Part shown: piece after piece, positions 1,453 through 62,188 of the stretch
Layout: the number at the start of each line of letters is the position of its first letter
Numbering within the stretch: the stretch's first letter is position 1
Source: Amoebophrya sp. A120
Lineage: Eukaryota; Protista; Dinoflagellata
Reading direction: 5' to 3'
NCBI GenBank assembly: GCA_905178155.1
Contig: CAJINV010000004.1
Location: forward strand, 1,364,881 to 1,428,880
Length of the DNA stretch: 64,000 bases
Program-made: the position numbers and the translations under genes
The notes under the pieces: generated by a model
Seen by the model: the letters and a program-made list of their open reading frames with translations, nothing else
Databases searched by the model: none
What the model was told of the DNA's origin: nothing

Positions 1453-4312
1453 TCAGGCTATCCACAGTAAATTTCCCGTACACGTACAAATGCCGTCTCT
1501 GCATGACAAAACTTGCCTTCAATCCTAGTCTAGCATGACAAGTTGGACACTGCAAGTTAGCGAAATTTGTCATGCATTTTGTACATGTACGGGAAATTTA
1601 CATTGCATACAGGCGAAAGGGATGCTATTGAAGTACGGATGGCGCAGACACTGCTTGGCACTGAGTCTCTGCATCGGGTTATCCTGAGTAAAAATGTCCC
1701 CACACCAGAGTTGTCATGCAAATCTGCATGCCAAAAAAGTTTCTCATGCGGACCCCCACGAGAAGCATTTTCTACTCTTATTTTGGAGTTTGTGATGCTA
1801 CAATCAGCATGATTTGCCAAATCTGTGATGCTGCTGAACTAGCGAAACAGAATCACACTATGAGGGCAAACTTGTCATGCGAAACAGCGAAAGCTGGTTG
1901 ATTTGTCTAGCAGATTTCCCATCTTGACTCTGGTGTGGGTACGTTTTTACTCAGGATACGGGTCATATTTCATGATGTCTTCGATCAGATCGCAGGCCTG
2001 CATTCCCAGGGTGGTGCCCAAGTCGCGTATTTGTGGCCATCTGTGAACAAGCGGTTTGTTGTTCGATACAGAGACATCCATCACAACAACGGATAAGTAT
2101 GGAAAATGGCAAACAAATCAGACATGAAAAATTCCAAAGATAGGATTGCATCGTCCCAAACTAATATCAACAAATACGGCTTCTTTTTCCATTTCGGGAA
2201 TGTGCTCTTCATGTTGGGGAGTTCGTACATGGTCGCCCACTCCTCCTCGCTCGGGGTGCCGAGTTTCTGGAAAATTTTGAAGATCGTGTCGATTTCGCTG
2301 TCACCGGCGAAGAGCGGCTGGCCACACCCCATTTCCGCAAAAATGCAGCCGACGGACCAGAGGTCCACGGGTAACGCGTAGAGTTTTATCAACTGCACAC
2401 ACCTTCTTCGCTCCGGCGGAGTCTGGAAAGCAAAAAAGCGGCAAATGCAAAATAATCTTTGTGTGTAGTACTATTTCAGATGGTCAACTCTTTTGCAGAA
2501 AAAAATTTTGTGAAAGCTGCAGTGCCATCCAGCAAAGCACAACACTTTCTTTCATGCAACAAGGGACATTTGTTTCATCTTGTCATCCGCAAGTTTCAGC
2601 AGCGAGCGTACATTATACGCACAAGAACTTCTCACGCTCGATCTTGCAGTTCAAACTTTTACAAACTGAAACTTTATGTTTCCACAAAAGTTCTCCACAA
2701 TTATAGCATCACACCTTTCCAGACTACTCGTCCCGACGAGATGTTTTGCAATCCGTAGGTTCCTGCCCGAGCAAGATTTCCGGTGATCGGTACCAGACCG
2801 TGACAACCTCGTGGGTGTACCTGATGTGAATGTGTACTTACACTTAGTTCGTATTAATTGGATTTTCATAGTCAAATGCAAATCTGCATGACAGAGTAAA
2901 GGTAAACTGCAACTGCACTAGGATATAATGCCCCGCATCAGAAATAAAATTATCTAGTGCTGCCCCGCATCATCTAGTACTTTGGCATCGGCACGGAGTA
3001 AGTCCTGGCGAGTCCGAAATCCGCTAGCTTCAATTGGTTGTTGTGCGTTACGAGGAGGTTTTGCGGCTTCAAGTCGCGATGGATGATCCTTCTCTCGTGG
3101 CAGAAGCAAATCCCCTTCAGCATCTGCTGCACGAAACTCCTCGCAGTTTCGGAGGGTAGTGGCCCACTGCCGTTCTTGCGCATGTACCTGGTGGTAGATA
3201 ATTTGTGGTTGTTTTTTACGCAGTCGAAGATTTTCAGGCTCTTGCAGAAGCACTCGTCTGTCTAGTACGTTCCTCGCACGACTTGTTGACCTAAGAAGTG
3301 CTCCTGCGGTGCTTATTAACAAATTCGCATGTCGGTTTTGCCTAAGTGATTCGCGAATGGGTTATTCCAAATGCTGCAGTGCTTAACACTTTCGAACGAT
3401 TCTGCTTGAGTGTTTCGCACAACTTTTTTCCCAATGCATAGCGTAGCCTCAAAAAACATCTGTATTGCTATTCCTTTTCCATGCAAAGGAAACGAATTTC
3501 TAAATATCAAAAAGTCGATCAATACTTCTTGAGATCGCTATCCACGAACTCGAAGATCAGGAGCAGCTTGTTCTGCGTGCAGCACACGTCCAGAAGCTTC
3601 ACCACATTTGGGTGATCCAGCTCCTTCAAAATGGCCACTTCCCGGATCGCTGTGCTGGGCACCCCTTCCTTATGCATTGCAAAAGTATCCTCGCACTCGT
3701 ACTAATCGCAACAATGCATGACAGATCTAGCTTCTAACCTGAATCTCCAGGACAAATTGCACTCTTCTTCTTGGCAAAATTTGTCATGCGAGTTGTCATA
3801 CTAGTACGATGTACTTTTACAATGCATATTCCTCCTCATCTTGCAACTTCATGCGCTTCATCGCCACCGTCTCTCCGGTTACCGTGTTTCTATCAAAATG
3901 AAAAAAGCCCCCACCCCATATCAAATGGGAAATCTGTGATGCAGGATTTGTGTACACAAATGCGCGCTGTCTTGCAATACGGCATCGCGGCCAGATTCGC
4001 AGCCTAGGGGGGGACATTTGGGTCTAGGTGCTTAGCATTACAAACGGCTGCTCTCTAGGCCCAACAGCATGCCAAATCGCTTCCATAATGGCGCGGAAGC
4101 CTCTGCGTTTGTCTTCTTGCAAGACGGACGCGATTTGTGGTCTCAAATCAGCAAGACAAATTTTCGGAAGCATGCCTTTTCGATATGGGGAGGGGGGATT
4201 TTTCCTCTCAATAGTTTCGCACCCGAAACACCTCGCCGTACGTCCCCTCCCCGAGCGGATTCCGGTCCAGCTTGCTGTACTTTTGCTCGAAGCTGGTACT
4301 GGAGGACGCCAT
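1453..4312 (-). CDS. CDK1: Cyclin-dependent kinase, PSTAIRE class (CDK1/cdc2-like), multi-exon
   Basis: Joined exons give [68 protein letters not shown]...HRDLKPQN...DFGLAR...[18 protein letters not shown]...[12 protein letters not shown]...[17 protein letters not shown]; 3 GT-AG introns and 5 TIR introns. Confidence 0.96.
1459..1609. mobile_element. TIR introner (family H)
   Basis: TAT...ATA ends, TIR core GTAAATTTCCCGTACA, TSD CAGGC; interrupts the CDK stop codon. Confidence 0.85.
1680..1958. mobile_element. TIR introner (family A)
   Basis: TIR TATCCTGAGTAAAAA.GT.CCCACACCAGAG, TSD CGGGT; removal gives KYDP|MQRLSA. Confidence 0.93.
2387..2757. mobile_element. Degenerate TIR introner (B-like)
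   Basis: TATCAACTGCA...TGCAATCCGTA ends, GTCTGGAA/TTCCAGAC remnants, decayed TSD AGTTT/GGTTC; removal plus 5 nt joins LLGQ to YALPVD. Confidence 0.7.
3671..3828. mobile_element. TIR introner (family G)
   Basis: TATGCATTGCAAAAGTA...TACTTTTACAATGCATA, TSD TTCCT; removal gives [13 protein letters not shown]. Confidence 0.9.
3891..4213. mobile_element. TIR introner (family C)
   Basis: TATCAAAATGAAAAAAGCCCCCACCCC...GGGGAGGGGGGATTTTTCCTCTCAATA, TSD GTTTC; removal gives VRN|TVTGE. Confidence 0.92.

Positions 4313-62188: not shown

What the first reader, a model, noticed from the sequence alone, without database searches (positions are those of the whole stretch)
1680..59914. The same introner family is used in both orientations relative to transcription
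Seen: family A at 1680 (minus-strand CDK) and 32258 (plus-strand eIF3d) have the same plus-strand orientation, so opposite strands are transcribed. Family B appears in both orientations within plus-strand genes (51667 vs 30612 and 59646). Inference: the splice signal is symmetric (TIR hairpin or palindromic ends), not a polar donor/branch/acceptor set, which is hard to reconcile with standard U1/U2 recognition.
Basis: partly seen in the sequence, partly recalled or inferred. Interest (0 to 1): 0.78.

Follow-up and report, generated by a model that had tools for sequence, protein, structure and literature searches.

The report
Transposon introns spliced facing either way
Small hairpin-ended mobile elements of an already published kind sit in both directions inside genes of the marine parasite Amoebophrya and are cleanly missing from its likely-RNA contigs without the usual GT-AG signals, likely because each end carries the same short signal that an altered splicing machine reads at a fixed distance.

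Summary
Observation confirmed. The window is Amoebophrya A120-type DNA (eIF3d exon 100% identical to an A120 protein), and the elements are its published introners (TAT…ATA inverted ends, 5-bp duplication). Family A lies antisense in CDK (1680) and sense in eIF3d (32258); family B lies one way at 51667 and the other at 30612 and 59646. Likely-RNA contigs skip element+5 exactly at 32258, 33134, 39012, 39468 and 39774 (4 of 4 runs, one study). Removal of 1680 and 30612 rests on contig arithmetic and stops, of 51667 on homologues, of 59646 on frame only. In another assembly family B splits 22:15. Duplications are not enriched for GT/AG (3 of 126, 4.7 expected). No RNA-strand hairpin selection was seen (G-U 144, A-C 131). 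Either-way introners are published for Aureococcus and Polarella with canonical sites. I found no printed statement for A120, but three earlier scan reports on other pieces of this genome reached the same result.

The parts
1680..1958 (-). Family A introner in the last CDK exon, antisense relative to 32258; TSD CGGGT on +
   Evidence: retention stop; skip inferred from contig depth and length
32258..32541 (+). Family A introner in eIF3d; TSD GGCGA
   Evidence: 289-nt skip in 4 of 4 likely-RNA runs
33134..33412 (+). Family A introner near the eIF3d stop; TSD GATGA
   Evidence: 284-nt skip in 4 of 4 runs
39774..40055 (+). Family A introner in the plus-strand gene at 38.7-41 kb; TSD CGCGG
   Evidence: 287-nt skip in 4 of 4 runs
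36340..36619 (+). Family A copy nested inside an older 573-nt non-canonical intron (36321-36893)
   Evidence: joint 36320>36894
30612..30873 (+). Family B introner in eIF3d, orientation opposite to 51667; TSD GGGCA
   Evidence: junction equals the A120 protein 13/13, A25 8/13; retention stop at 30728; contig lengths fit a spliced mRNA
51667..51934 (+). Family B introner in the Ca2+/H+ exchanger gene; TSD ACCTG
   Evidence: junction 13/13 to transcript-derived P0001 and 12/13 to A25 P0002; retention stop at 51676; no reads laid
59646..59914 (+). Family B introner in the PHD-finger gene, orientation as 30612; TSD CGGGG
   Evidence: 1005-codon ORF restored; retention stop; no reads laid
39012..39279 (+). 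Family B introner, orientation as 51667; TSD GTGGG
   Evidence: 273-nt skip in 4 of 4 runs
6185..6446 (-). Family B introner, probably in a minus-strand gene (then oriented as 30612); strand from reading frame only
7802..8066 (-). Family B introner, probably the same minus-strand gene; strand from reading frame only
12905..13166 (-). Family B copy, inferred to sit in the left TIR of an older 550-nt non-canonical intron (12620-13169)
   Evidence: length bookkeeping on one contig
39468..39716 (+). Family B-like introner; relatives at 38137 (plus gene) and 15249 (minus gene) lie the other way on their transcripts
   Evidence: 254-nt skip in 4 of 4 runs; orientation
13955..14232 (-). Older introner with decayed TSD; cut placeable to 2 registers, one being 1-before/4-after
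36321..36893 (+). Older non-canonical intron (TT..CG), unique register 1-before/4-after
51961..52165 (+). Older introner in CAX with decayed TSD; only registers 4 or 5 give the conserved NQVLGG, and an available GT..AG pair would frameshift

Best explanation
These are non-coding inverted-repeat elements that lie in either direction within genes and are absent from likely-RNA contigs together with exactly one copy of their 5-base duplication, likely because an altered U2-type spliceosome reads a short signal carried on both ends and cuts at a fixed distance from it. Shown: both orientations occur in families A, B and B-like; removal equals element+5; target duplications are unselected for GT or AG. 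Shown on few cases: the cut lies 1 nt before the 5' TAY and 4 nt after the 3' ATA. Inferred: insertion by a transposase with 5-nt staggered cuts and no polarity. Inferred: because 1+4=5 and the ends are inverted repeats, any new copy in any target and either direction restores the mRNA. Inferred: N-TAY acts as a donor that has lost its G (U1 was not detected in this organism), the hairpin brings the ends together, and the 3' cut is measured from the ATA, possibly from a branch adenosine 7 nt upstream of the cut. So the element is symmetric as DNA, but the reaction on the RNA is polar.
For: Joints. Registers: 36321-36893 unique; 13955, 35281 and 37143 each one of two possible registers. Homologue-constrained registers: 51961 and 53680 need k>=4, 52614 favours k>=4 weakly, and 54384 needs k<=4 because k=5 makes a stop. 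TSD composition matches random coding 5-mers for five statistics. Orientation 22:15 for B (p=0.32) and 6:6 for family G in another assembly. Canonical donors are 17 of 18 GTAY. TIR positions 4 and 7 pair in only 84 and 62 of 148 elements, while 11-13 pair in 141-144, which looks like a read motif (TAT-N7-AAA) more than a perfect helix. In five decayed introns with RNA joints, +2 T and -7 A are kept 5 of 5 (my reading of the printed ends). A120 keeps U2, U4, U5, U6 and nearly all spliceosomal proteins, and its commonest non-canonical ends are NT-NN (PMC7789003).
Against: Nothing here shows the spliceosome acting: no lariat, no branch data. One decayed intron (35032-35245) fits 4-after only with a decayed ATA, and fits 3-after about as well. 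Conservation of TAT-N7-AAA could be transposase binding alone. The detector forced TA[TC] ends, so terminal conservation in young copies is no evidence. RNA support is contigs from one study and at most 2 samples, labelled RNA by guess, without strand or efficiency. Family A alone was 0:6 in the other assembly (p=0.031) against 3:1 in the window, so a family-level bias is not excluded.
Confidence: 0.55

Rival explanations
1. Structure-guided, non-spliceosomal removal as proposed for Euglena nonconventional introns: the terminal hairpin alone positions an endonuclease/ligase, which cuts 1 nt before and 4 nt after the stem. This is closest to the first reader's view.
For: All seven folded copies close a terminal stem whichever strand is transcribed (-98 to -124 kcal/mol); sense is more stable than antisense in 68 of 148. 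Euglena introns also show fixed asymmetric spacing around inverted motifs (PMC12501133 abstract and passages). No AG is needed.
Against: No excess of G-U over A-C pairs on the transcribed strand (144 vs 131, p=0.47; 52 vs 46 elements). This test is weak for young copies. Decayed introns with poor terminal pairing are still cut precisely. The 5' text matches the genome's spliceosomal donor.
Confidence: 0.27
2. A dedicated protein (for example a domesticated transposase-derived factor) binds TAT-N7-AAA at both ends, on RNA or co-transcriptionally on DNA, and recruits or replaces the splicing machinery.
For: The motif is shared across otherwise unrelated families. Farhat et al. propose a novel subunit replacing U1.
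Against: No such protein was sought or found here; no genome was available.
Confidence: 0.12
3. Aureococcus/Polarella mechanism: each strand supplies ordinary GT/GC/GA and AG sites from the TIR or the duplication, so only insertions that happen to offer them survive.
For: Published for either-orientation introners (10.1101/2020.10.14.339549). G before TAT gives GT in 37 of 126 cases; 32258 offers a GC-AG register.
Against: GT-AG in any register 3 of 126 vs 4.7 expected; G[TCA]-AG 13 vs 14.1; neither site 25 vs 28.9. Placeable cuts end CT..GA, GT..GA, TT..CG, CT..TC. At 51961 a GT..AG pair exists but would frameshift CAX.
Confidence: 0.03
4. The elements are removed from DNA in part of the life cycle, or the joined contigs are DNA or assembly artefacts.
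For: The runs are RNA only by guess.
Against: The same contigs also skip canonical GT-AG introns. The DNA-like run X5 has contigs running into the elements and across the 2387-2757 element (table 8); only 15 of 400 joints were displayed there.
Confidence: 0.03

Closest known systems
Introner elements / non-canonical introns of Amoebophrya sp. A120 (Farhat et al. 2021, PMC7789003; read: abstract, section 10, last part of Results, section 16, passages, supplement part 3 and legend passages)
   Same: Same organism type, inverted repeat starting TAT + 7 nt + AAA, 3-5 nt direct repeats, about 240-nt non-GT-AG introns, hairpin model, U1 not detected.
   Different: In the text I could search ('orientation' 4 hits, about genes or in a reference title; 'strand' 0; supplement 'orientation' 2 of 3 hits shown, both about genes) the paper says nothing on element orientation and calls the splice positions relative to the hairpin variable. 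Figures were not visible.
Either-orientation TIR introners of Polarella glacialis and Aureococcus anophagefferens (Roy et al. preprint 10.1101/2020.10.14.339549, passages; Huff et al. 2016 not held, known only through that preprint and from recall)
   Same: TIR + TSD transposons creating introns in both orientations with exact mRNA restoration.
   Different: They recruit GT/GC/GA and AG from the TSD or TIR, so targets are constrained and registers vary. Here targets are unconstrained and the register appears fixed.
Euglena nonconventional introns (Nomura et al. 2025, PMC12501133; abstract and passages)
   Same: No GT-AG, inverted terminal motifs, fixed unequal spacing to the two cuts, MITE origin proposed.
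   Different: Signature N3-CDG…CH'G-N5-6|R versus N1-TAY…ATA-N4 here; unrelated lineage; machinery unknown in both.
Fritillaria borealis non-canonical MITE-derived introns (via review PMC11282704, passages)
   Same: TIR/TSD introns without GT-AG in a genome that keeps some canonical introns.
   Different: Dominant AG-AC/AG-AT ends there; here no dinucleotide rule beyond T at +2.

Membership tests
Amoebophrya A120 introner elements | IR starting TAT, 7 variable nt, then at least AAA | tested here: met
   (A at positions 11-13 in 134-145 of 148 ends; TA[TC] was forced by the detector)
Amoebophrya A120 introner elements | 3-5 nt direct repeat at the boundaries | tested here: met
   exact 5-bp TSD, 28 hits vs 0-1 per shuffle
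Amoebophrya A120 introner elements | Removed from RNA at non-GT-AG boundaries | tested here: met
   (likely-RNA contigs)
Amoebophrya A120 introner elements | Repeated families within the genome; host is A120-type | tested here: met
   eIF3d exon 100% identical to a protein named Amoebophrya sp. A120
Aureococcus/Polarella-type introners | TIR + TSD, introns made in either orientation | tested here: met
Aureococcus/Polarella-type introners | Canonical or near-canonical splice sites carried or recruited from the TSD | tested here: not met
Canonical U2 introns | GT-AG ends | tested here: not met
Canonical U2 introns | Donor consensus beyond the G (TAY at +2..+4 in this genome) | tested here: met
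Canonical U2 introns | Lariat formation at a branch adenosine; snRNP dependence | not testable with these tools
   needs lariat sequencing or extracts
Euglena nonconventional introns | N3-CDG / CH'G-N5-6 signature | tested here: not met
   ends printed against the signature
Euglena nonconventional introns | Pairing of the ends required for removal | tested here: inconclusive
   hairpins predicted, but no G-U/A-C asymmetry
MITE | Cognate autonomous transposase in the genome | not tested
   no whole genome held

The most novel reading that the evidence does not exclude
A120 runs a second splicing code in which no host base matters: the transposon's own inverted ends define a G-less donor and an AG-less acceptor at a fixed 1/4 offset, with the branch adenosine inside the terminal ATA 7 nt from the cut, or with no spliceosome at all. 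Any TAT…ATA transposon would then become a perfect intron at any site and in either direction.
Probability: 0.45. Interest if true: 0.75.

Novelty: already known. Interest (0 to 1): 0.42.

Why it matters
The elements and their odd boundaries are published, and two-way introners are published elsewhere, so the finding itself is an expected property of a known system. What was not found in print is the combination for A120: two-way use, unselected targets and one fixed asymmetric cut. It would explain how about 30,000 elements could invade exons almost without cost. It also turns the open question of how Amoebophrya splices without GT-AG and without a detectable U1 into a specific test (branch position; sequence versus pairing mutants). 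It would improve gene models as well: the public eIF3d protein is mis-spliced at one of these elements.

Tried and rejected
Whole-genome orientation count: impossible, no genome held; replaced by 139 loci from another public assembly (accession prefix JACKZZ01, relation to the window's strain not determined). Of 237 elements there, 121 got no strand call and were dropped. The strand caller was right in 84 of 84 calls among 212 test windows at the threshold used (one mis-framed training ORF was removed afterwards). Viral contigs: 0 matches. No holder on record as RNA was listed. Raw-read runs X8 and X9 did not cover the locus (4 and 0 of 30 bins), so strand and splicing efficiency by orientation could not be measured. 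In one search the DNA-like run swamped the joint table (15 of 400 shown), 7 joints were not shown, and none for 38137 appears. B12905 was first counted as proof for the reverse orientation and then rejected, because it is nested in an older intron; 36340 likewise. 51110 lies between CAX exons matched by homologues and is also not a clean exon insertion. 12905 and 51110 remained among the 148 elements. Two starts (52615, 53682) were wrong and were redone. A joint entered as 38468>43086 was off by one; the loose end gives a canonical GT-AG intron. The G-U versus A-C test and the sense versus antisense folding test showed no asymmetry. No formal branch-motif search was run; no shared branch consensus was evident by eye in the 3' ends printed. 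Huff et al. 2016 is not held.

Full report
What is there. The window holds about 30 elements of 110-325 nt that begin TA[TC], end [AG]TA, have inverted ends and are flanked by an exact 5-bp direct repeat. The detector finds 28 exact cases against 0-1 in each of 10 shuffles. An eIF3d exon is 100% identical to a protein named Amoebophrya sp. A120, and the next hit is A25. Farhat et al. (PMC7789003) describe A120 introners with an inverted repeat starting TAT, seven looser bases and at least three As, 3-5 nt direct repeats, non-GT-AG ends and no detectable U1 snRNA. These are those elements.

Checking the observation. Copies 1680 and 32258 align plus/plus at 86%. Copy 51667 aligns plus/minus with 30612 (77%) and 59646 (83%) over full length. 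Pfam puts CDK on minus and eIF3d, the Ca2+/H+ exchanger and the PHD gene on plus. Keeping any of the five named elements gives an in-frame stop. In the window, family A is 1 antisense (1680) against 3 sense (32258, 33134, 39774). Family B is 2 (51667, 39012) against 4 (30612, 59646, and, with strand from frame only, 6185 and 7802). Copies 36340 and 12905 are nested in older introns and were not counted.

RNA evidence. Contigs of four likely-RNA runs (one study, at most two samples) skip exactly element+5 at 32258, 33134, 36145, 39012, 39468 and 39774 in 4 of 4 runs, alongside canonical GT-AG introns (15 of 22 joints shown). For 1680, one contig of depth 17.2 has 804 nt left after position 1453. 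Bin depths (6.61 and 8.58 observed; 6.73 and 8.54 predicted) indicate that it covers the exons up to 3187, which needs 621 nt spliced but 905 nt with 1680 kept. This is inference from arithmetic. For 30612, three contigs would start 135-145 nt upstream of the ATG if it is spliced, and the junction matches the A120 protein 13/13 and A25 8/13. For 51667 the junction matches a transcript-derived relative 13/13. For 59646 only the restored 1005-codon frame speaks. So one orientation each of A and B has direct joints, and the other rests on indirect but consistent evidence. No efficiency comparison was possible.

A larger sample. A family B end pattern found 139 loci in another public assembly. Of 237 elements there, 116 got a host-strand call. 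Family B split 22:15 (p=0.32), family G 6:6, D 1:1 and B-like 1:2. Family A was 0:6 (p=0.031 alone; the window has 3 of the missing kind). Family C was 4:0, while the window's four C copies all lie the other way. Two-way use is therefore general, though a family-level bias is not excluded.

Are ordinary sites borrowed from the target? No. Among 126 elements with exact duplications, oriented on the transcript, a GT-AG pair exists in some register for 3 (4.7 expected from random coding 5-mers), G[TCA]-AG for 13 (14.1), and neither GY nor AG for 25 (28.9). This differs from Polarella and Aureococcus, where either-orientation introners recruit sites from the duplication.

Where is the cut? With exact duplications it cannot be placed; with decayed ones it can. 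RNA joint 36320>36894 has one register: 1 nt before the 5' repeat and 4 nt after ATA. The joints at 13955, 35281 and 37143 allow two registers, one of which is that one. The joint at 35032 is 1-before, but its 3' end is too decayed to tell 3 from 4. In CAX, homologues require k>=4 at 51961 and 53680, favour it at 52614, and k=5 makes a stop at 54384. At 51961 a GT..AG pair is present but would frameshift. Farhat's commonest A120 ends are NT-NN, as this register predicts. The 18 canonical donors I could place all start GTA, 17 of them GTAY, so the elements start like a donor without its G.

Sequence or hairpin? All seven folded copies close a terminal stem, and sense is more stable than antisense in 68 of 148. 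But G-U pairs do not exceed A-C on the transcribed strand (144:131), and positions 4 and 7 are often unpaired (84 and 62 of 148 paired) while 11-13 are paired (141-144). This leans towards a read motif but does not exclude a structural role, and transposase binding could explain the same conservation.

Judging the interpretation. Inverted ends show the same 5' and 3' text in both orientations, so two-way use cannot by itself rule out polar signals, and the cut is in fact asymmetric. I favour an altered U2-type spliceosome reading N-TAY and measuring from ATA (0.55) over a Euglena-like structure-guided route (0.27) or a dedicated binding protein (0.12). None of these is shown.

Novelty. The system is published. 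Five literature searches and term searches in Farhat's text and supplement (figures not visible) gave no statement on A120 element orientation or a fixed register. The Gozashti papers, seen as passages, name A120 introners or allow opposite-orientation matches without this analysis. Three earlier, unreviewed reports of this scan on other pieces of the same genome describe removal of element plus one duplication in either orientation, two of them with a fixed register. They are not independent evidence; my results come from my own calls. Verdict: real, a known system, with a testable unpublished detail.

Noticed in passing
window 33134-33412: The public A120 eIF3d protein (P0121) ends ...DGCFDPMTTHKEE..., but likely-RNA contigs join 33128>33413 and give an acidic tail like A25's; the annotation appears mis-spliced at this element.
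   Followed up: partly
window 38469-43084: A 4.6-kb canonical intron of the gene starting near 34.5 kb contains a whole expressed same-strand gene (contigs from 38523; 369-codon frame after removing five introners).
   Followed up: partly
window 36340-36619 and 12905-13166: Young introners nested in older non-canonical introns; 12905 appears to have landed inside the older element's terminal TAT, and the outer intron is still removed at the 1/4 register.
   Followed up: partly
window 17557-17856 and 21058-21357: 98%-identical direct repeats of at least 300 bp flank an intronless 830-codon minus-strand frame with a Cys-rich motif near its end; possibly an LTR-type element (guess). No introners detected in it.
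   Followed up: no
window 22100-25700: Palindromic and tandem arrays (periods about 33, 71 and 92-106 nt) lie where the genes examined switch from the minus strand to the plus strand.
   Followed up: no
window 12905-12989: About 200 raw RNA reads of X8 and a contig of X3 carry an 85-nt family B end with the same foreign flank: a transcript from elsewhere that retains part of an element.
   Followed up: no
window 50840-55000: The CAX gene holds at least four older TAT..ATA introns with decayed duplications (51961, 52614, 53680, 54384), useful for placing the cut.
   Followed up: yes
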